Source: a virus (taxonomy: Duplodnaviria; Heunggongvirae; Uroviricota; Caudoviricetes). Taken from it: DNA of 8,016 nt. The stretch covers positions 1-8,016 of IMG/VR virus record IMGVR_UViG_3300029181_000038, one strand, 5' to 3'. How positions within the stretch are numbered: the stretch's first letter is position 1; each line of letters starts with the position of its first letter. The notes below the pieces were generated by a model, which made no database searches, had not been told where the DNA came from, and was given only the letters and a program-made list of their open reading frames with translations. This document shows, in pieces, positions 1-8,016 of the stretch. The translations under genes and the position numbers were made by a program.

Positions 1-1093
1 TTGAGTCGATACCGATGTATGTCACGTTGTACTGTTCGGTCAGTTTTTTGATGGCGTCAGCCTGGGCGCGGAAGTCCATCCCGCGCCACTGGTGACGTTC
101 AAGAATGCGAAACTTACCGCCTGGCACGGCTGGCGGTGCCACCACCACGCATCCGGCGCTGTCGCCGTTCTGCGTACCTTTTGCCGGGTCATAACCGATC
201 CACACTTCGCGCCAGCCAAACGGGCGCAGGGCCAGTGCATGAAAGTCGCTCCAGACTTCCCAACTGTCCACCATGCACGCCTGCAGCTCGCTGAGCGGGA
301 ACACGGACGCGAGATCGTCCACAAACTCGCACATCAGCAGGTTCTGGTATTCGTCCGGGCTGTACTCCATGCGCAACTGATCGAGGTCGAAAAGGTTACA
401 TCCGCCGCGCACTGCATCTTCCACGGTGACTATCTGGCGGTATTGCCCGTCTGCGCACAGCAGGCCGGGGGCCAGATTGCTGTGGGACAGGTCGATGTCC
501 ACCTTATCGGCTTTGTTGCGCCCACGGTTGAACAGCGCACCAGACCAGAACGGATAAGCACTGTGTGTCAGGCTGGATGGCGTGGAAAAATAGGTTTGTC
601 GCCATTTTTTGTGAATAGCCATACCGGAAGCCACTTTGCGCAGCTCCTGGAATTTCGGTATCCAGAAATATTCATCCAGATACAGGTTGCCGTGATAACT
701 CTGGGCAGTGCGGGCATTGGTGCCGAGGAAGTAAAGCGTGGCCCCGTTAGGAAGCACCATCGGATCGCCTTTCAGCTCCACCTCGACTTCTTTGGCGAAG
801 TCGATGATGTATTGCTTAAAGACGTGAGCCTGTGCCTTACTGGCAGAAAGGAAAATCTGGTTACGTCCGGTAAGCAGGGCGTCAATCAGGGCTTCACGGG
901 CAAAGTAAAAGGTCGCGCCGATCTGGCGTGACTTCAGCAGATTACGGATGCGGTTGGTTTTTCCAGCTTCCCACCAGTGGCGCTGGTAGTTGAACATGGA
1001 GGAATGGAAGATTTCTTCCAGCTTCTCAATCTGTTCATCGGTGAAAACATTCTTTTCCGGCTGACGGCGCGGCCCTTTGTTGCGGTTCCTGCC
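1..1093 (-). pseudogene. P: Phage terminase large (ATPase) subunit, P2 gpP-like; 3' end runs off the left window edge; 5' end appears truncated (no in-frame start between the stop at 1094-1096 and the first ATG at 997-995)
   Basis: Minus-strand frame (codons at 2-4, 5-7, ...) is open across the whole region and translates to ...QPEKNVFTDEQIEKLEEIFHSSMFNYQRHWWEAGKTNRIRNLLKSRQIGATFYFAREALIDALLTGRNQIFLSASKAQAHVFKQYIIDFAKEVEVELKGDPMVLPNGATLYFLGTNARTAQSYHGNLYLDEYFWIP..., which reads as a terminase ATPase domain. It is not in the ORF track because it has no stop inside the window. The listed + ORF 92-931 is its antisense. Whether the gene is truly truncated or simply starts at Met997 is uncertain. 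Confidence 0.6.
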
Positions 1094-1565: not shown

Positions 1566-2983
1566 GCACAAAATTTTATACCCTGCTGACGGATATTGGC
1601 GCGGCGAAACTTGCCAGCGCCGCCGCGCTCGGTGTGCCGCTAAAAATTACCCATATGGCGGTGGGCGATGGCGGCGGAGCATTGCCGACGCCGGACGCAA
1701 AGCAGACGGCACTGGTAAATGAGAAACGCCGGGCTGCGCTGAATATGCTCTATATCGACCCGCAGAACAGCAGCCAGATTATTGCTGAACAGGTGATCCC
1801 TGAAAACGAGGGCGGTTGGTGGATACGTGAAGTGGGCCTGTTTGATGAGTCAGGGGCATTGATTGCCGTGGGGAACTGCCCGGAAAGCTATAAACCGCAA
1901 CTGGCTGAAGGCAGCGGGCGTACCCAGACCGTGCGCATGGTGCTGATTACCAGCAGCACGGACAATATCACCCTGAAAATCGACCCTGCCGTAGTGCTGG
2001 CAACCCGCAAGTATGTGGATGACAAGGTACTGGAGCTGAAGGTGTACGTGGATGATCAGATGGCAAAACATCTTGCCGCACCGGACCCGCATTCACAGTA
2101 TGCACAGAAAGAAAGTCCGACGTTTACCGGGACACCAAAAGCGCCAACGCCAGCGGCAGGGAATAACACCACGCAGGTTGCGACCACCGCGTTTGTTCAG
2201 GCGGCACTGACGGCCCTTATTAATGGTGCTCCAGCCACGCTGGACACGCTAAAAGAAATAGCCGCAGCCATTAACAATGATCCGAATTTCAGTACCACCA
2301 TTAACAATGCGCTGGCACTGAAAGCGCCGTTGTCGAGTCCGGCACTCACCGGAACGCCAACAGCACCTACTGCGGCACAGTCGGTCAACAATACACAGAT
2401 TGCCACTACGGCTTTTGTGAAATCGGCGATTGCGGCAATGGTAGGTTCTGCACCTGCGGCACTGGATACACTGAACGAACTGGCGGCGGCGCTGGGGAAT
2501 GACCCAAACTTTGCCACGACAATGCTTAATGCACTGGCAGGTAAACAACCGCTGGACAATACGCTGACTAATTTGAGTGGAAAGGATGTAGCTGGTCTTC
2601 TCACATACCTTGGTTTGGGAGAAGCGGCAAAACGGGATGTGGGGACAGGGGAAAATCAGATACCGGATATCTCCAACGTTCCATTTACAAAAAACAATCC
2701 TCTTAATTTTGAGTTACCAGGAGGATTAATTCTGAAAGCCGGGTATGGAAAGCTGACAACGCAGTCCAGTATCTGGATTAATTTCCCTGCAGCATTCCCT
2801 AATGACTGTATTGCCGGAGGAGCTTTAAGTGCGGAAGAGAACACAAATGACTATGTATTTGCTCAAACTACATCACGCAAAGCAGGAGGATTAACTCTGG
2901 CGTTTTATCGTGGGGGCATTAGTCAGCCACCAACAGCCAATTCCAGAGAACTTTCTTTCTCGTGGTTTGCGATAGGATATTAG
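1562..2983 (+). CDS. H: Tail fiber protein, P2 gpH-like; constant N-terminal part (to ~2610) fused to variable C-terminal cassette Hv (2611-2983) in the current orientation
   Basis: 473-aa ORF; N-terminus MSTKFYTLLTDIGAAKLASAAALGVPLKITHMAVGDGGG... is the conserved P2-family tail-fiber N-terminal domain; internal tandem fibre repeats; translationally coupled to upstream I (ATGA) and downstream tfa. Confidence 0.92.
   Translation: MSTKFYTLLTDIGAAKLASAAALGVPLKITHMAVGDGGGALPTPDAKQTALVNEKRRAALNMLYIDPQNSSQIIAEQVIPENEGGWWIREVGLFDESGALIAVGNCPESYKPQLAEGSGRTQTVRMVLITSSTDNITLKIDPAVVLATRKYVDDKVLELKVYVDDQMAKHLAAPDPHSQYAQKESPTFTGTPKAPTPAAGNNTTQVATTAFVQAALTALINGAPATLDTLKEIAAAINNDPNFSTTINNALALKAPLSSPALTGTPTAPTAAQSVNNTQIATTAFVKSAIAAMVGSAPAALDTLNELAAALGNDPNFATTMLNALAGKQPLDNTLTNLSGKDVAGLLTYLGLGEAAKRDVGTGENQIPDISNVPFTKNNPLNFELPGGLILKAGYGKLTTQSSIWINFPAAFPNDCIAGGALSAEENTNDYVFAQTTSRKAGGLTLAFYRGGISQPPTANSRELSFSWFAIGY
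2598..2623. repeat. Left crossover site of invertible segment (gix/cix/hix-like 12-2-12 site) located inside gene H
   Basis: ttctcacatacc-tt-ggtttgggagaa. Its reverse complement ttctcccaaaccaaggtatgtgagaa is identical to the right site at 4437-4462 over the first 14 nt; the exact inverted repeat is 15 nt (2610-2624 vs 4436-4450). Half-sites fit the TTCTC..AAACC pattern of Gin-family recombination sites. Confidence 0.8.
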
Positions 2984-3999: not shown

Positions 4000-4449
4000 T
4001 ATGCAGCCCTCACGATATAGTTAAATGCAATATTTCGTGGACGGGTTTCACTCCCGCCGGGGAGCTGAAAAGCGTTGATAATCCCACCGCTTGCCTGACT
4101 TATTCCATCCGTGTACAACCCGCCACCGGCACTGTCGCTGAGTGCAAATGTTTTTGATGGTGAACTGTTTGAAGCTGGCCCCCAGTATTTTAATGCGAGC
4201 TTTCTGACTTCATCACTCTGAATACTCAATAAAGCACGCCCTGTATCAATGCCGCGCCCATCATCCCAGCCACGAATAAACTCACCACGTAAATCAGGCA
4301 ATTTATTTGTCGGATAAGCCTTTGCCAGTTCCGGGTATTCTTCAGCAGAAAAAGCTGCACCGTTGCATTTCAGCCAGCCTGTCGGCGGAGTGGCTGAAGG
4401 CCATGGAACAGGGACACCAACAGGTAATGCCGAACCTTCTCCCAAACCA
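3999..4449 (-). CDS. Silent alternative tail-fiber C-terminal cassette (Hv'); no start or promoter of its own; would be fused in frame to the H constant region after inversion
   Basis: Minus-strand frame reads ...VGLGEGSALPVGVPVPWPSATPPTGWLKCNGAAFSAEEYPELAKAYPTNKLPDLRGEFIRGWDDGRGIDTGRALLSIQSDEV...NIAFNYIVRAA, which looks like a side-tail-fibre receptor-binding C-terminus. The GLGE codons sit on the crossover repeat in the same codon phase as LGLGE of H (2609-2623). The ORF-track start MMPVARYL at 4490 lies on or beyond the crossover site and is probably not used. Confidence 0.8.
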
Positions 4450-4462
4450 ACGTTTATGAAAA
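4437..4462. repeat. Right crossover site of invertible segment (gix/cix/hix-like), ~55 bp upstream of the invertase gene
   Basis: ttctcccaaacc-aa-cgtttatgaaaa; inverted copy of the site at 2598-2623; imperfectly palindromic around a central AA dinucleotide. Confidence 0.8.
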
Positions 4463-4517
4463 TGCAGAGATAACGGGCAACTGGCATCATCTCCGGTTTT
4501 TATTCAGGGGGATGCTC

Positions 4518-5084
4518 ATGCTTATTGGCTATGTACGCGTGTCAACAAATGACCAGAACACGGAATTGCAGCGTAACGCGCTGGAGTGCGCAGGATGCGA
4601 GCGGATTTTTGAGGATAAAATCAGCGGCACGAAGTCCGACCGACCGGGACTGAAAAAACTGCTCAGAACACTATCGGCAGGAGACACGCTGGTTGTCTGG
4701 AAGCTGGACAGGTTGGGGCGCAGTATGCGGCATCTTGTTACGCTGATAGAAGAGTTGCGCCAGCGTGGCGTGAATTTCCGAAGCCTGACTGACAGTATTG
4801 ATACCAGTACCCCAATGGGCCGTTTCTTTTTTCATGTCATGGGTGCCCTGGCTGAAATGGAACGCGAACTGATAGTTGAACGTACCAGGGCAGGGCTGGC
4901 TGCAGCTCGTGTTAAAGGCAGAGTAGGTGGACGCCGTCCTAAGTTGACCAGCGAACAGTGGGCACAGATTGGGCGTTTACTCGAGGCCGGAGAATCAAGA
5001 CAGCGTATTGCACTGATTTTTGATGTAGGCGTTTCTACCATTTATCGAAAATTTCCGGCAAATAAGAGCAATGAATCTCCCTGA
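4518..5084 (+). CDS. Site-specific DNA invertase, serine recombinase of the Gin/Pin/Cin/Hin family
   Basis: MLIGYVRVSTNDQNTELQRNALECAGCERIFEDKISGTKSDRPGLKKLLRTLSAGDTLVVWKLDRLGRSMRHLV...GRFFFHVMGALAEMERELIVERT...GGRRPKLT... with a C-terminal HTH (VGVSTIYRKF); catalytic Ser in the YVRVSTNDQ motif. Start chosen at ATG 4518 (AGGGGG at 4505-4510, 7-nt spacing) rather than the in-frame ATG at 4512, which sits too close to the SD. Confidence 0.93.
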   Translation: MLIGYVRVSTNDQNTELQRNALECAGCERIFEDKISGTKSDRPGLKKLLRTLSAGDTLVVWKLDRLGRSMRHLVTLIEELRQRGVNFRSLTDSIDTSTPMGRFFFHVMGALAEMERELIVERTRAGLAAARVKGRVGGRRPKLTSEQWAQIGRLLEAGESRQRIALIFDVGVSTIYRKFPANKSNESP

Positions 5085-5132: not shown

Positions 5133-5150
5133 TGTGTGAATAACGGTACA
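5133..5150 (+). promoter_or_regulatory. P2-type late promoter activator element (TGT-N12-ACA, Ogr/Delta-family binding site) upstream of FI
   Basis: tgt-gtgaataacggt-aca in the 142-bp FI upstream region, centred ~85 bp before the FI ATG; consistent with a -55-centred Ogr site and a ~30-nt leader. No strong -35 is visible, as expected for activator-dependent late promoters. Exact -10 not assigned. Confidence 0.5.
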
Positions 5151-5226: not shown

Positions 5227-6399
5227 ATGGCTCAGGATTACCACCACGGGGTGCGCGTTGTTGAAGTCAACGAAGGCACTCGATCCATTACTACGGTGAG
5301 CACCGCCATCGTGGGCATGGTCTGCACGGGCGATGATGCCGATGCAAAAATGTTCCCTCTTAATAAACCCGTGCTGATCACTGATGTGCTTACTGCCAGC
5401 GGTAAAGCGGGTGAGTCCGGTACGCTGGCCCGTTCGCTGGATGCCATCGCTGACCAGGCAAAACCCGTGACCGTTGTTGTGCGTGTGCCGCAGGGTGAAA
5501 CGGAAGACGAAACCACGACCAATATCATCGGCGCAGTGACTGCTGAAGGTAAAAAAACAGGTATGAAAGCCCTGTTATCTGCCCAGTCACAGCTCGGCGT
5601 TAAACCGCGCATTCTCGGCGTGCCAGGCCACGACACCAAGGCGGTAGCTACTGAGTTGCTGAGCATGGCGCAAAGCCTGCGTGGATTTGCTTACCTGTCA
5701 GCATATGGCTGCAAGACGGTACAGGAGGCGATCACTTACCGTGAAAACTTTAGCCAGCGCGAAGGGATGCTGATCTGGCCTGACTTTACTGGCTGGGACA
5801 CTGTGCTGAATGCCGAAGCAACGGCATATGCCACCGCCCGTGCGCTTGGTCTGCGCGCCAAAATTGACGAGCAAACCGGATGGCACAAAAGCCTGTCCAA
5901 CGTGGGCGTGAACGGTGTCACCGGAATTTCTGCAGATGTGTTCTGGGATCTGCAGGACCCGGCAACCGATGCAGGTCTGCTGAACCAGAACGACGTCACC
6001 ACGCTTGTGCGCAAGGATGGTTTTCGCTTCTGGGGTTCCCGCTGTCTGAGCGATGATCCGCTCTTTGCCTTCGAAAACTACACCCGCACGGCGCAGGTGC
6101 TGATGGACACGATGGCAGAAGCGCACATGTGGGCGGTGGACAAACCGCTGAACCAGTCGCTGGCCCGCGACATTATCGAAGGTATCCGCGCCAAAATGCG
6201 CAGCCTGGTCAGTCAGGGCTATCTCATTGGTGGTGATTGCTGGCTGGACGAGTCGGTGAACGATAAAGACACGCTGAAAGCCGGGAAGCTCACCATCGAC
6301 TACGACTACACGCCAGTGCCGCCACTTGAAAATCTGATGCTGCGCCAGCGCATCACCGATCAGTATCTGGTGAATTTTGCCAGCCAGGTCAGCGCGTAA
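5227..6399 (+). CDS. FI: Contractile tail sheath protein, P2 gpFI-like
   Basis: 390-aa ORF; [40 protein letters not shown]...[19 protein letters not shown]...[24 protein letters not shown] closely matches the P2 sheath protein as I remember it; RBS CAGGAGG at 5211-5217. Confidence 0.93.
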
Positions 6400-6408
6400 G
6401 GGGACAAC

Positions 6409-6924
6409 ATGGCTTTACCACGCAAATTAAAACATCTGAACCTGTTTAACGACGGGAACAACTGGCAGGGGATCGTAGAGTCGCTGACGCTGCCGAAATT
6501 CACCCGCAAATATGAGAAGTATCGCGGCGGCGGAATGCCAGGTGCAGTGGATGTGGATCTGGGGCTTGATGACAGTGCGCTGGACACAGAATTTTCCATT
6601 GGTGGTACTGAACTGCTGCTGTTTAAGCAGATGGGCAAAGCCACGGTGGATGGCATCCAGTTGCGCTTTACCGGCTCTATCCAGCGTGACGATACCGGGG
6701 AAGTGCAGGCCGTGGAGCTTGTGGTGCGTGGACGTCACAAAGAAGTTGACTCTGGTGAGTGGAAGACGGGCGAAAGCAACACCACCAAAGTGACCAGTAC
6801 CAACAGCTACGCGAAGCTGACCATCAATGGTGAGGTGCTCTATGAAGTGGACCTTATCAACATGGTGGAAATTGTGGACGGTGTGGACCTGATGGAAGCG
6901 CACCGCAACGCACTCGGCCTCTGA
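6409..6924 (+). CDS. FII: Tail tube protein, P2 gpFII-like
   Basis: 171-aa ORF 9 nt after FI with RBS AAGGGGA; MALPRKLKHLNLFNDGNNWQGIVESLTLPKFTRKYEKYRGGGMPGAVDVDLGLDD... fits the P2 tail tube family; conserved FI-FII order. Confidence 0.9.
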   Translation: MALPRKLKHLNLFNDGNNWQGIVESLTLPKFTRKYEKYRGGGMPGAVDVDLGLDDSALDTEFSIGGTELLLFKQMGKATVDGIQLRFTGSIQRDDTGEVQAVELVVRGRHKEVDSGEWKTGESNTTKVTSTNSYAKLTINGEVLYEVDLINMVEIVDGVDLMEAHRNALGL

Positions 6925-6935
6925 TGTATCTGAAC

Positions 6936-6953
6936 GGCGCGGAATGCCGCGCC
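6936..6953 (+). other. GC-rich hairpin (7-bp stem GGCGCGG/CCGCGCC, 4-nt loop) between FII and E; no following U-tract
   Basis: ggcgcgg-aatg-ccgcgcc seen directly, 12 nt after the FII stop. Not a canonical intrinsic terminator; could be an mRNA stability or processing element that affects the FII:E expression ratio. Confidence 0.3.
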
Positions 6954-6978
6954 AGAACCCAATTTACAGGACAGCAAA

Positions 6979-7281
6979 ATGAGCGATAAGCAGACTGAAA
7001 AGACCATTCAACTGGATACCCCCATCAAGCGCGGTAAAACAGAAATCACCGAAATTGTGCTGCGTAAACCGCAGTCTGGTGCGCTGCGCGGCACACGCCT
7101 GCAGGCCATTATGGATATGGATGTGAACGCGATGATGACCGTGATCCCCCGCATCTCCAGTCCGGCACTGACTGCACAGGAAATCGCAGAGATGGACCCG
7201 GCAGATCTCACAGCCATGTCGGTTGAGGTTGTCACTTTTTTGTTGAAGAAGTCGGTGCTTGCCGGTTTACCGACAGCCTGA
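6979..7281 (+). CDS. E: Tail assembly chaperone, P2 gpE-like (zero-frame product)
   Basis: 100-aa ORF MSDKQTEKTIQLDTPIKRGKTEITEIVLRKPQSG...; position between the tube gene and the tape-measure gene, as for P2 E and lambda G. Confidence 0.85.
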   Translation: MSDKQTEKTIQLDTPIKRGKTEITEIVLRKPQSGALRGTRLQAIMDMDVNAMMTVIPRISSPALTAQEIAEMDPADLTAMSVEVVTFLLKKSVLAGLPTA

Positions 7282-7415
7282 CGGTTGACGATCTGGTGGC
7301 AGATATCGCCACCATTTTTCACTGGCCGCCATCCGTTACTGACGTTATGCCGCTGACCGAAGTGCTGGAATGGCGGTATAAAGCGATTCAGAGATGCGGG
7401 GCCAACGATGAGTGA
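6979..7415 (+). CDS. E+E': Frameshift fusion product E+E' (tail assembly chaperone long form), made by -1 slippage at 7236-7242
   Basis: -1 frame after the slip site encodes VEEVGACRFTDSLTVDDLVADIATIFHWPPSVTDVMPLTEVLEWRYKAIQRCGANDE with no stop until 7413-7415, which overlaps the T start (ATG 7408). This matches the known P2 E/E' arrangement. Confidence 0.7.
7236..7242 (+). promoter_or_regulatory. Programmed -1 ribosomal frameshift slippery heptamer T-TTT-TTG within E
   Basis: Zero-frame codons TTT (7237-7239) and TTG (7240-7242); the -1 frame is open from 7242 to a TGA at 7413-7415. Confidence 0.75.
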
Positions 7416-8016
7416 TAACAACCTGCGCCTGCAGGTCATTCTTAATGCGGTTGACAAACTCACCCGCCCATTCCGTGCTGCACAGGCCAGTTCGAAAGAG
7501 CTGGCTGGCGCAATCAGAAACTCCCGTGACGCATTAAAGCAACTCAATCAGGTGGGTAACAGCCTGGAAAAATTTCGCAAGCTGCAGGCTGATAACAAGA
7601 AGTTAGGCGACAGGCTGAACTATGCCAGACAGAAGGCTAATTTGCTTAGCTCTGAGCTGGAGGCGATGGAGCAACCATCACAAAGGCATCTTGTGGCTTT
7701 AGGTCGGCAAACGCTGGCAGTCCAACGCCTGGAAGAACAACAAAAATATTTGCAGAAGCAAACGGCGCTTGTGCGTGCTGAACTGTACCGGGCGGGAATT
7801 TCTGCGAAAGATGATGCGGGAGCAACTGCCCGTTTAGCCCGTGAAACATCACGTTATAACCAGGAACTTTCGAAACAGGAGGCGCGGCTGAAGCGACTGG
7901 GGGAAGCTCAGCGCAGGATGAATGCAGCGCGTGCCAGTTATGCCCGTTCGCTGGAGGTGCGTGATCGTATTGCAGGTGCCGGAGCCACCACCACGGCTGC
8001 AGGGCTGGCAATGGGC
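7408..8016 (+). CDS. T: Tail tape measure protein, P2 gpT-like, N-terminal 203 codons (continues beyond the window)
   Basis: Open frame from ATG 7408 to the window end: MSDNNLRLQVILNAVDKLTRPFRAAQASSKELAGAIRNSRDALKQLNQVGNSLEKFRKLQADNKKLGDRLNYARQKANLLSSELEAMEQ..., a coiled-coil-rich N-terminus typical of tape-measure proteins. Missing from the ORF track because it has no stop in the window; the listed minus ORFs 7008-7547 and 7646-8011 are its antisense. Confidence 0.85.
   Translation, partial: MSDNNLRLQVILNAVDKLTRPFRAAQASSKELAGAIRNSRDALKQLNQVGNSLEKFRKLQADNKKLGDRLNYARQKANLLSSELEAMEQPSQRHLVALGRQTLAVQRLEEQQKYLQKQTALVRAELYRAGISAKDDAGATARLARETSRYNQELSKQEARLKRLGEAQRRMNAARASYARSLEVRDRIAGAGATTTAAGLAMG

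What the first reader, a model, noticed from the sequence alone, without database searches (positions are those of the whole stretch)
7236..7415. Conserved -1 programmed frameshift producing E+E' tail chaperone
The slippery heptamer T-TTT-TTG lies near the 3' end of E, and the -1 frame is open for 57 further codons ending at a TGA that overlaps the ATG of tape-measure gene T. This matches the established P2 E/E' and lambda G/GT paradigm. It suggests the FI-FII-E-T tail module is under selection and possibly functional despite the upstream deletion.
Basis: partly seen in the sequence, partly recalled or inferred. Interest (0 to 1): 0.45.

Follow-up and report, generated by a model that had tools for sequence, protein, structure and literature searches.

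The report
P2-type tail chaperone frameshift site
This is the well-known ribosomal frameshift signal that lets P2-like phages make two tail-assembly chaperones (E and E+E') from one start codon; it is intact here, inside a prophage that has lost its head, lysis and baseplate genes, and it is ordinary.

Summary
Gene E (6979-7281, 100 aa) carries an in-phase T TTT TTG heptamer at 7236-7242. The -1 frame then runs 57 codons to TGA 7413-7415. It overlaps the tape-measure gene T (ATG 7408) by 8 nt, so the TGA lies just after that ATG rather than on it.

The -1 extension matches Pfam Phage_P2_GpE (5e-18). The predicted 145-aa fusion aligns without gaps to P2 gpE+E' (48% identity, E 1.6e-50), and P2's own TTTTTTG sits at the homologous codon.

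The heptamer is invariant in 65 distinct close relatives. All 19 diverse P2-like lineages examined have an in-phase X XXY YYZ heptamer in the E/-1 overlap. Codon-position variability switches from frame 0 to frame -1 at the site.

I found no conserved downstream RNA structure, as reported for P2. An upstream Shine-Dalgarno-like GAGG (7225-7228) is only a weak candidate stimulator.

The element is about 97-98% identical to known Peduoviridae (Escherichia phage Cartapus, Klebsiella phage 4LV2017), so this is already known biology. The upstream deletion is real: terminase fragment fused to gene I at about codon 43. FI, FII, E and T show strong purifying selection (dN/dS 0-0.07), but that cannot be dated to after the deletion. 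Current function is therefore unproven.

The parts
6979..7281 (+). Gene E: tail assembly chaperone, 100 aa, the frame-0 product
   Evidence: ORF. Pfam Phage_TAC_7 1e-18. PHROG 103 'tail protein' 2e-42. Variable sites among 65 relatives fall on third codon positions of this frame (66 of 95).
7236..7242 (+). Slippery heptamer T TTT TTG, in phase (ACT TTT TTG), the site of the -1 tandem tRNA slip
   Evidence: Sequence. Same heptamer at the homologous codon in P2, 19678-19684, next to the RefSeq-annotated frameshift site 19685. Invariant in 65 distinct close relatives, including its three synonymous positions. An in-phase heptamer is present in 19 of 19 diverse lineages.
7242..7415 (+). E' extension: 57 codons in the -1 frame plus TGA. 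With E residues 1-88 it gives the 145-aa E+E' fusion.
   Evidence: Translation. Pfam Phage_P2_GpE 5e-18. PHROG 1756 covers it from the heptamer onward. 54% identity to P2 E'. In the E'-only region 7282-7407, variability is periodic in the -1 frame, with 25 of 37 variable sites at -1-frame third positions.
7225..7228 (+). [quoted passage not shown]
   Evidence: It meets the SD criteria of PMC4066793. 13 of 19 lineages have such a motif against a 7.7% background, but 9.1 of 19 are expected from the protein sequence alone, p about 0.02.
7251..7282 (+). Local hairpin 8 nt downstream of the heptamer: not significant, not conserved
   Evidence: MFE -13.5 kcal/mol, z -0.88. Absent in P2, and mean z over 19 lineages is -0.5. 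One stem pair is broken without compensation in a relative clade.
7408..8016 (+). Start of tape-measure gene T, which runs off the window. It overlaps E' by 8 nt.
   Evidence: Translation. Homologous position annotated as tape measure in Cartapus, E. coli prophages and P2.
6409..6924 (+). FII tail tube gene, the upstream neighbour that defines the tube / chaperone / tape-measure gene order
   Evidence: Pfam Phage_tube 9e-60.
5227..6399 (+). FI tail sheath gene, first gene of the F operon
   Evidence: Pfam Phage_sheath_1, Phage_sheath_1C and Gp18_domIII_N.

Best explanation
This is the E/E+E' tail-assembly-chaperone cassette of a P2-like (Peduoviridae, Elveevirus-like) prophage.

Most ribosomes translate E (6979-7281) to its TGA and make the 100-aa chaperone. 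A minority slip on ACU UUU UUG. With tRNA-Phe in the P site on UUU and tRNA-Leu in the A site on UUG, both tRNAs slip back one base and re-pair with UUU UUU. The next codon read is GUU at 7242. Those ribosomes add 57 residues in the -1 frame and produce the 145-aa E+E' protein, which ends 8 nt inside gene T.

By analogy with lambda G/GT, the shared E part binds the tape-measure protein T. The E' domain is thought to recruit the tail tube protein FII. Low-efficiency slipping fixes the E : E+E' ratio.

What is shown here: the sequence anatomy, homology of both parts to P2 E and E', conservation of the heptamer, and the frame switch in the substitution pattern. What is inferred: the slip mechanism, its efficiency, the chaperone roles, and whether the cassette is expressed or useful in this defective prophage.

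The site appears to work without a conserved downstream RNA structure. The upstream GAGG is a possible but unproven stimulator.
For: - Anatomy.
- Pfam: Phage_TAC_7 on residues 9-88 and Phage_P2_GpE on residues 107-143 of the predicted fusion. PHROG 1756 covers residues 85-145.
- Gapless alignment to P2 gpE+E': 48% identity, E 1.6e-50. Both E' parts are 57 residues. TTTTTTG sits at the same codon (GGT TTT TTG in P2, ACT TTT TTG here).
- The P2 RefSeq record annotates E+E' as a 2-piece join with a '-1 translational frameshift' at 19685 and calls it an 'essential tail protein'.
- PMC3091744 states that the P2 frameshift occurs at TTTTTTG, giving E (91 aa) and E+E' (142 aa), and that P2 lacks a downstream structure.
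- tblastn of the fusion against phage records: 419 records match, 387 at 80% coverage or more, and every high-coverage hit listed is in two pieces.
- The heptamer is invariant in 65 distinct relatives of 79-97% identity, while 66 of 85 other third positions in E vary.
- 19 of 19 diverse lineages have an in-phase XXXYYYZ in the overlap. Fifteen have TTTTTTG. The others have TTTTTTC, TTTTTTT, GGGAAAG and AAATTTT.
- The codon before every T-run heptamer ends in T, although it encodes G, T, N, S, D or P.
- 4 of 19 lineages have no start codon in the -1 frame between the heptamer and the conserved E' motif. Almost none of the rest has an SD there.
- Gene order FI-FII-E-E'-T is confirmed.
Against: - No direct evidence of the frameshift product from this sequence. 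Everything rests on homology and comparison.
- PMC4066793 does not list U_UU.U_UU.G among the efficient motifs in E. coli, so efficiency is probably low and may depend on context that I could not establish.
- The prophage is defective: head, lysis and baseplate genes V, W, J and part of I are deleted. The cassette may never be used in this host.
- Most public annotations treat E' as a separate 39-aa gene.
Confidence: 0.9

Rival explanations
1. E' is a separate small gene, translated on its own from GTG 7296 as a 39-aa 'GpE family phage tail protein'. Most automated annotations show it this way. No frameshift is involved.
For: PGAP and RefSeq records of close relatives annotate exactly this 120-nt ORF. 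The Pfam PF06528 model covers only the last 37 residues.
Against: - No SD-like motif precedes GTG 7296.
- In RSA1, VHML, Mannheimia 1127AP1 and Klebsiella CP052639 the -1 frame has no start codon at all between the heptamer and the conserved ADIA motif.
- The -1 frame is open back to the heptamer in all 19 lineages.
- The 18 codons between the heptamer and the GTG match a protein profile (PHROG 1756). They align with P2 E' and vary mostly at -1-frame third positions (8 of 13 variable sites).
- P2 genetics, as recorded in RefSeq, assign the essential product to the fusion.
Confidence: 0.04
2. The -1 frame is reached by RNA polymerase slippage on the T6 run, which would add one extra U to a fraction of mRNAs, rather than by ribosomal slippage.
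For: The site contains a run of six T. Transcriptional slippage on homopolymer runs is known in bacteria and IS elements (review PMC5009743).
Against: - Related lineages reach the same E' frame with G GGA AAG (Mannheimia) and A AAT TTT (phage 503458). These have no six-base homopolymer but fit tandem tRNA re-pairing.
- The motif is always in the X XXY YYZ phase relative to frame 0. That phase matters for ribosomes, not for RNA polymerase.
- From general knowledge, six T is shorter than the runs (about 8-9 or more) that give appreciable slippage in enterobacteria.
Confidence: 0.04
3. The cassette is an inert relic. The signal is intact only because the prophage decayed recently, and in this host it is not expressed or has no function. 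This concerns present-day function and does not contradict what the sequence encodes.
For: - The element lacks the N-terminal ~113 codons of terminase, all head and lysis genes, V, W, J and the first ~42 codons of I.
- The low dN/dS against intact phages can be fully explained by selection before the deletion.
Against: - FI, FII, E, E' and the visible part of T have no disruptions.
- A P2-type late-promoter dyad is still present upstream of FI.
- Three different deletion derivatives of this prophage type all retain H through ogr. This is compatible with selection for the tail module, and equally with selection against lysis and head genes.
Confidence: 0.35

Closest known systems
Bacteriophage P2 gpE / gpE+E' (-1 frameshift in the FETUD tail operon; Christie et al. 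2002, cited through PMC3091744 and RefSeq NC_001895)
   Same: Homologous E and E' parts: 48% identity overall, 54% in E', no gaps. Identical heptamer TTTTTTG at the homologous codon. E' of 57 residues in both. An 8-nt overlap with T in both. Same FI-FII-E-E'-T gene order. No conserved downstream RNA structure.
   Different: E is 100 aa here and 91 aa in P2 (3 extra N-terminal residues and 6 extra frame-0 codons after the slip site). The preceding codon is ACT (Thr) rather than GGT (Gly). The element here is a deleted prophage, not a viable phage.
Elveevirus / Felsduovirus-type Peduoviridae: Escherichia phage Cartapus, Klebsiella phage 4LV2017, Salmonella phage RE-2010 (Fels-2-like)
   Same: 97.5-98% nucleotide identity over 6900-7500 for Cartapus and 4LV2017. 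RE-2010 is about 86% identical at protein level. Cartapus has the same E length, heptamer and E', differing by one residue.
   Different: Those are complete phage genomes. Their records annotate E' as a separate 39-aa ORF rather than as a fusion. The window carries Cys (7395-7397) where most relatives have Ser in E'.
Phage lambda gpG / gpGT tail assembly chaperones (Levin et al. 1993; Xu, Hendrix and Duda 2004, 2013, 2014; summarised in PMC5009743)
   Same: Same strategy and genomic position. Two overlapping ORFs lie between the major tail/tube gene and the tape-measure gene. A low-level -1 slip near the end of the first ORF gives a fixed ratio of short and long chaperone.
   Different: No Pfam family other than Phage_TAC_7 and Phage_P2_GpE matched at E<=0.01, so lambda-type chaperone families did not appear. 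Lambda uses G GGA AAG. Lambda has a non-contractile tail. This is a functional analogue, not a sequence-family member.

Membership tests
P2 gpE / gpE+E' tail chaperone pair | N-terminal part homologous to gpE (Pfam PF10109 Phage_TAC_7) | tested here: met
   E 1e-18, 67.5 bits against a 25-bit cut-off. Aligns to P2 gpE.
P2 gpE / gpE+E' tail chaperone pair | C-terminal extension, encoded in the -1 frame, homologous to E' (Pfam PF06528 Phage_P2_GpE) | tested here: met
   5e-18, 64.8 bits against a 23-bit cut-off. 54% identity to P2 E' over 57 residues, E 2e-23.
P2 gpE / gpE+E' tail chaperone pair | In-phase X XXY YYZ slippery heptamer (TTTTTTG in P2) inside the E/-1 overlap, at the homologous codon | tested here: met
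   7236-7242, ACT TTT TTG. P2 has 19678-19684, GGT TTT TTG.
P2 gpE / gpE+E' tail chaperone pair | Position between tail tube gene FII and tape-measure gene T, with E' ending just inside T | tested here: met
   FII 6409-6924, E 6979-7281, T ATG 7408, 8-nt overlap as in P2.
P2 gpE / gpE+E' tail chaperone pair | The fusion protein is actually made by -1 frameshifting and is needed for tail assembly | not testable with these tools
   Needs a reporter assay, mass spectrometry or genetics. Only recorded for P2 itself.
Lambda G/GT-type conserved tail chaperone frameshift (functional class of Xu et al. 2004) | Two overlapping ORFs between the major tail/tube gene and the tape-measure gene, linked by a -1 slippery site near the end of the first | tested here: met
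Lambda G/GT-type conserved tail chaperone frameshift (functional class of Xu et al. 2004) | Sequence homology to lambda gpG / gpT | tested here: not met
   The Pfam scan at E<=0.01 returned only Phage_TAC_7 and Phage_P2_GpE. It works like G/GT but is not a member of that sequence family.
Stimulated bacterial -1 frameshift signals (dnaX / IS911 type: upstream SD and/or downstream hairpin) | SD-like sequence 6-17 nt upstream of the motif | tested here: inconclusive
   GAGG at 7225-7228, spacing 8. 13 of 19 lineages have one against a 7.7% background, but 9.1 of 19 are expected given the protein sequence, p about 0.02 without phylogenetic correction.
Stimulated bacterial -1 frameshift signals (dnaX / IS911 type: upstream SD and/or downstream hairpin) | Conserved downstream stem-loop or pseudoknot 5-9 nt after the motif | tested here: not met
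   The local hairpin has z -0.88. Mean z over 19 lineages is -0.5 and P2 has none. No covariation, and one uncompensated break. No Rfam match.

The most novel reading that the evidence does not exclude
The tail module, with its intact frameshift cassette, may be kept by selection in otherwise gutted prophages. Three different deletion derivatives of this Elveevirus-like prophage all lose head, lysis and baseplate genes yet keep H-G-invertase-FI-FII-E-E'-T-U-D-ogr: the window, E. coli UR21/11-869 and E. coli LP50-1. Two of them share a deletion endpoint to the nucleotide. The module could serve as a recombination or complementation reservoir for superinfecting P2-like phages, or as part of a tailocin completed in trans. 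A smaller possible novelty is that the upstream SD-like GAGG is the real stimulator of the intrinsically weak U UUU UUG motif in P2-like phages.
Probability: 0.1. Interest if true: 0.45.

Novelty: already known. Interest (0 to 1): 0.1.

Why it matters
Little is at stake scientifically. The E/E+E' frameshift is an established feature of P2-like phages, and near-identical copies exist in sequenced phages.

There are two practical points.

1. Automated annotation still splits E' off as a separate 39-aa 'GpE family' gene in most records. A correct annotation here should be a 2-piece join: 6979-7242 and 7242-7415.
2. An intact cassette does not show that this defective prophage is functional.

Tried and rejected
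- **Downstream stimulatory structure.** The 48-nt fold has z -0.88. The 80-nt fold has z -2.88. That signal comes from a hairpin at 7294-7314, about 50 nt from the site. It encodes the conserved VADIAT motif and is absent in P2. Mean z over 19 lineages is -0.5 (45 nt) and -0.8 (70 nt). Close relatives show no compensatory change. Rfam gave no match at E<=1. Rejected as a conserved stimulator.
- **Upstream SD-like motif.** It looked strongly enriched: 13 of 19 against a 7.7% background. Resampling synonymous codons while keeping the protein sequence gives 9.1 of 19 expected, p about 0.02. Kept only as a candidate.
- **NCBIfam.** No hit for E, E' or the fusion.
- **PDB sequence search.** No hit.
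- **Christie et al. 2002 (PMC135442).** Not held in the library. I relied on PMC3091744 and the P2 RefSeq annotation instead.
- **Source genome.** The 30-nt deletion junction has no exact match in the species-representative genomes. No complete E. coli genome is more than about 96% identical over the window. The source organism was not identified.
- **IMG/VR relatives of P2 itself.** They are 99-100% identical, too similar to test synonymous constraint.
- **Invertase-mediated origin of the shared deletion endpoint.** I compared the junctions by eye with Din-family crossover sites as I recall them. The half-sites do not resemble them. Rejected informally.

Full report
**1. The observation**

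The window encodes, on the + strand:
- a tail sheath gene FI (5227-6399);
- a tail tube gene FII (6409-6924);
- a 100-aa ORF, E (6979-7281);
- the start of a long coiled-coil ORF, T (ATG 7408, running off the window).

In the E frame the codons ACT TTT TTG occupy 7234-7242. T TTT TTG at 7236-7242 is therefore in the X XXY YYZ phase needed for tandem -1 slippage.

The -1 frame is open from 7227. Read from 7242, it gives 57 codons (VEEVGACRFTDSLTVDDLVADIATIFHWPPSVTDVMPLTEVLEWRYKAIQRCGANDE) and stops at TGA 7413-7415. The coordinates and the count of 57 codons are correct.

The only imprecision concerns the stop codon. The TGA lies two bases after T's ATG (ATGAGTGA). The reading frames overlap by 8 nt rather than the stop overlapping the start codon.

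TTTTTTG by itself is not unusual: 4 copies in the window against 1.75 expected. What matters is its phase and place, and what it connects.

**2. What it connects**

E matches Pfam Phage_TAC_7 ('tail assembly chaperone proteins E, or 41 or 14', 1e-18). The -1 extension matches Pfam Phage_P2_GpE (5e-18). In the predicted 145-aa fusion, the two domains occupy residues 9-88 and 107-143.

PHROG 1756 covers the fusion from residue 85 to the end, which is the whole stretch from the slip site onward.

I built the P2 fusion from NC_001895. There, E+E' is annotated as a two-piece join with a '-1 translational frameshift' at 19685 and described as an essential tail protein. Comparison with the window fusion:
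- The two proteins align without gaps: 48% identity, E 1.6e-50.
- The E' parts are both 57 residues and 54% identical.
- P2's heptamer TTTTTTG (19678-19684, GGT TTT TTG) is at the homologous codon.
- In both, the E+E' reading frame ends 8 nt inside T.

PMC3091744 summarises the P2 facts: -1 frameshift at TTTTTTG, E 91 aa, E+E' 142 aa, and no downstream structure in P2.

**3. Conservation**

*Close relatives.* 80 IMG/VR loci plus phage and E. coli records give 65 distinct gapless E..E' sequences of 79-97% protein identity. All keep the heptamer and none has a stop in the -1 frame. Across these sequences:
- 66 of 85 third codon positions in E upstream of the site vary, yet the three synonymous positions inside the heptamer never do.
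- In E, variable sites fall on third positions of frame 0 (66 of 95).
- In the E'-only stretch 7282-7407 they fall on third positions of the -1 frame (25 of 37).
- So the translated frame switches at the site.

*Phage records.* tblastn of the fusion finds 419 phage records, 387 with 80% coverage or more. Every high-coverage hit listed is in two pieces.

*Diverse lineages.* I examined 19 lineages: this window, Cartapus, P2, Fels-2-like RE-2010, ENT90, the eganviruses SW9 and 613R3, Shewanella M16-3, Burkholderia CEP1 and KL3, Ralstonia RSA1, the Citexvirus Dobby, SEN4, VHML, Mannheimia 1127AP1, Aeromonas LPM4, phage 503458, a Zymomonas prophage and a Klebsiella prophage. All 19 have an in-phase heptamer inside the E/-1 overlap:

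| Heptamer | Lineages |
|---|---|
| TTTTTTG | 15 |
| TTTTTTC | VHML |
| TTTTTTT | Zymomonas |
| GGGAAAG | Mannheimia (lambda's motif) |
| AAATTTT | phage 503458 |

The codon preceding every T-run heptamer ends in T, although it encodes Gly, Thr, Asn, Ser, Asp or Pro. This holds even in GC-rich hosts.

**4. Rivals**

*Separate initiation.* Most public records annotate E' as a separate 39-aa 'GpE family phage tail protein' starting at the equivalent of GTG 7296. Against this:
- No SD-like motif precedes that GTG.
- Four of the 19 lineages have no start codon at all in the -1 frame between the heptamer and the conserved ADIA motif.
- The -1 frame is open back to the heptamer in every lineage.
- The 18 codons upstream of the GTG behave as coding sequence.

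*Transcriptional slippage on the T6 run.* This is unlikely. GGGAAAG and AAATTTT lineages reach the same frame without a six-base homopolymer, and the motif is always phased to frame 0.

**5. Stimulators**

*Downstream.* A hairpin lies 8 nt downstream (7251-7282, -13.5 kcal/mol) but is not distinguishable from shuffles (z -0.88). Other findings:
- The 80-nt fold scores z -2.88. This comes from a hairpin at 7294-7314 that is too far away, encodes the conserved VADIAT motif and is absent in P2.
- Across the 19 lineages the mean z is -0.5 and P2 has no structure.
- Relatives show an uncompensated break in the stem.
- Rfam finds nothing.

This agrees with the published statement for P2 and the Burkholderia phages.

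[quoted passage not shown] 13 of 19 lineages have such a motif, against 7.7% at control positions. However, resampling synonymous codons with the protein sequence kept gives 9.1 of 19 expected (p about 0.02, lineages not independent). It remains a candidate only.

That paper does not list U_UU.U_UU.G among the efficient E. coli motifs. This fits a low-level shift.

**6. Context and the 'functional despite deletion' suggestion**

The region is 97.5-98% identical over 6900-7500 to Escherichia phage Cartapus (Elveevirus, Peduoviridae), Klebsiella phage 4LV2017 and many Klebsiella and E. coli prophages.

The deletion is real:
- Positions 1-1087 are a terminase large-subunit fragment on the minus strand, lacking about 113 N-terminal codons.
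- It is joined at 1086/1087 to gene I at about codon 43.
- The head, lysis, V, W and J genes are gone.

FI, FII, E, E' and the visible part of T are undisrupted. Against Cartapus and two E. coli copies, dN/dS is 0-0.07 for FI, FII, E and T. E' has too few changes to be informative. This shows purifying selection along the lineage. It cannot be assigned to the period after the deletion, and the element cannot build a baseplate on its own.

Two E. coli prophages carry other deletions of the same region and also keep H through ogr. One of them shares the window's terminase-side endpoint to the nucleotide. I did not resolve why.

**7. Verdict**

The finding is correct and is a textbook P2-type E/E+E' programmed -1 frameshift cassette, in a sequence nearly identical to known phages. 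It is already known, and interest is low. The proper annotation is a join of 6979-7242 and 7242-7415 for E+E', alongside E at 6979-7281.

Noticed in passing
window 1-1090 (junction at 1086/1087); L003 7041-7120; L102 7049-7140: The terminase fragment ends at ...TTGCGGTT and is fused to gene I (native I: CAGCTT|CCTGCC). E. coli UR21/11-869 has the terminase fragment ending at exactly the same base but joined to J near its start. E. coli LP50-1 has a third, different deletion (O' to J'). All three keep H through ogr. The shared endpoint is unexplained: nested deletion or hot spot.
   Followed up: partly
window 2598-2624 and 4436-4462; invertase 4512-5084: 27-nt inverted repeats (TTCTCACATACCTTGGTTTGGGAGAAG, which resembles a Din-family crossover site) flank a segment with an alternative tail-fibre tip and two oppositely oriented fibre-assembly genes. 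A Hin/Gin-type serine invertase lies next to it. This is an invertible host-range switch, as in Mu G or P1 C.
   Followed up: partly
window 5133-5150: A TGT-N12-ACA dyad lies about 77 nt upstream of the FI start codon. This is the position expected for a P2-type Ogr/delta-dependent late promoter (consensus recalled from knowledge of P2 late promoters; the P2 pF site is annotated at 17555-17583). The F operon could therefore still be switched on in trans.
   Followed up: partly
window 7294-7314 plus T-run to 7319: A terminator-like hairpin (7 bp, 5 G-C) followed by TTTTT lies inside E', between E and T. The T-run is specific to this window (the close relatives shown read ATC TTT) and the stem encodes the conserved VADIAT motif. 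It is probably incidental, but it could attenuate T expression.
   Followed up: partly
window 7296-7415 and equivalents in L001, L002, L003, L086, L102: Public records, including PGAP/RefSeq, annotate E' as an independent 39-aa 'GpE family phage tail protein' instead of a frameshift fusion. Pfam PF06528 models only the last 37 residues. This appears to be a systematic annotation artefact across P2-like prophages.
   Followed up: yes
L097 694-700, L099 655-661, L096 634-640, L100 652-658: Some P2-like lineages have replaced TTTTTTG with other slippery heptamers at the same place: GGGAAAG in Mannheimia 1127AP1 (lambda's motif), AAATTTT in Escherichia phage 503458, TTTTTTC in VHML and TTTTTTT in a Zymomonas prophage.
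   Followed up: partly
window 7395-7397: E' has Cys (TGC) where most relatives have Ser (..QRSG..). The Cys allele is shared by only 3 of the 65 distinct relative sequences.
   Followed up: no
L104 and L107 (IMG/VR contig IMGVR_UViG_2695420821_000010): One viral contig carries a full P2-type E+E' locus and, about 6 kb away, a second match covering only residues 1-105 of P2 E+E' at 100% identity. This may be a duplication or an assembly artefact.
   Followed up: no
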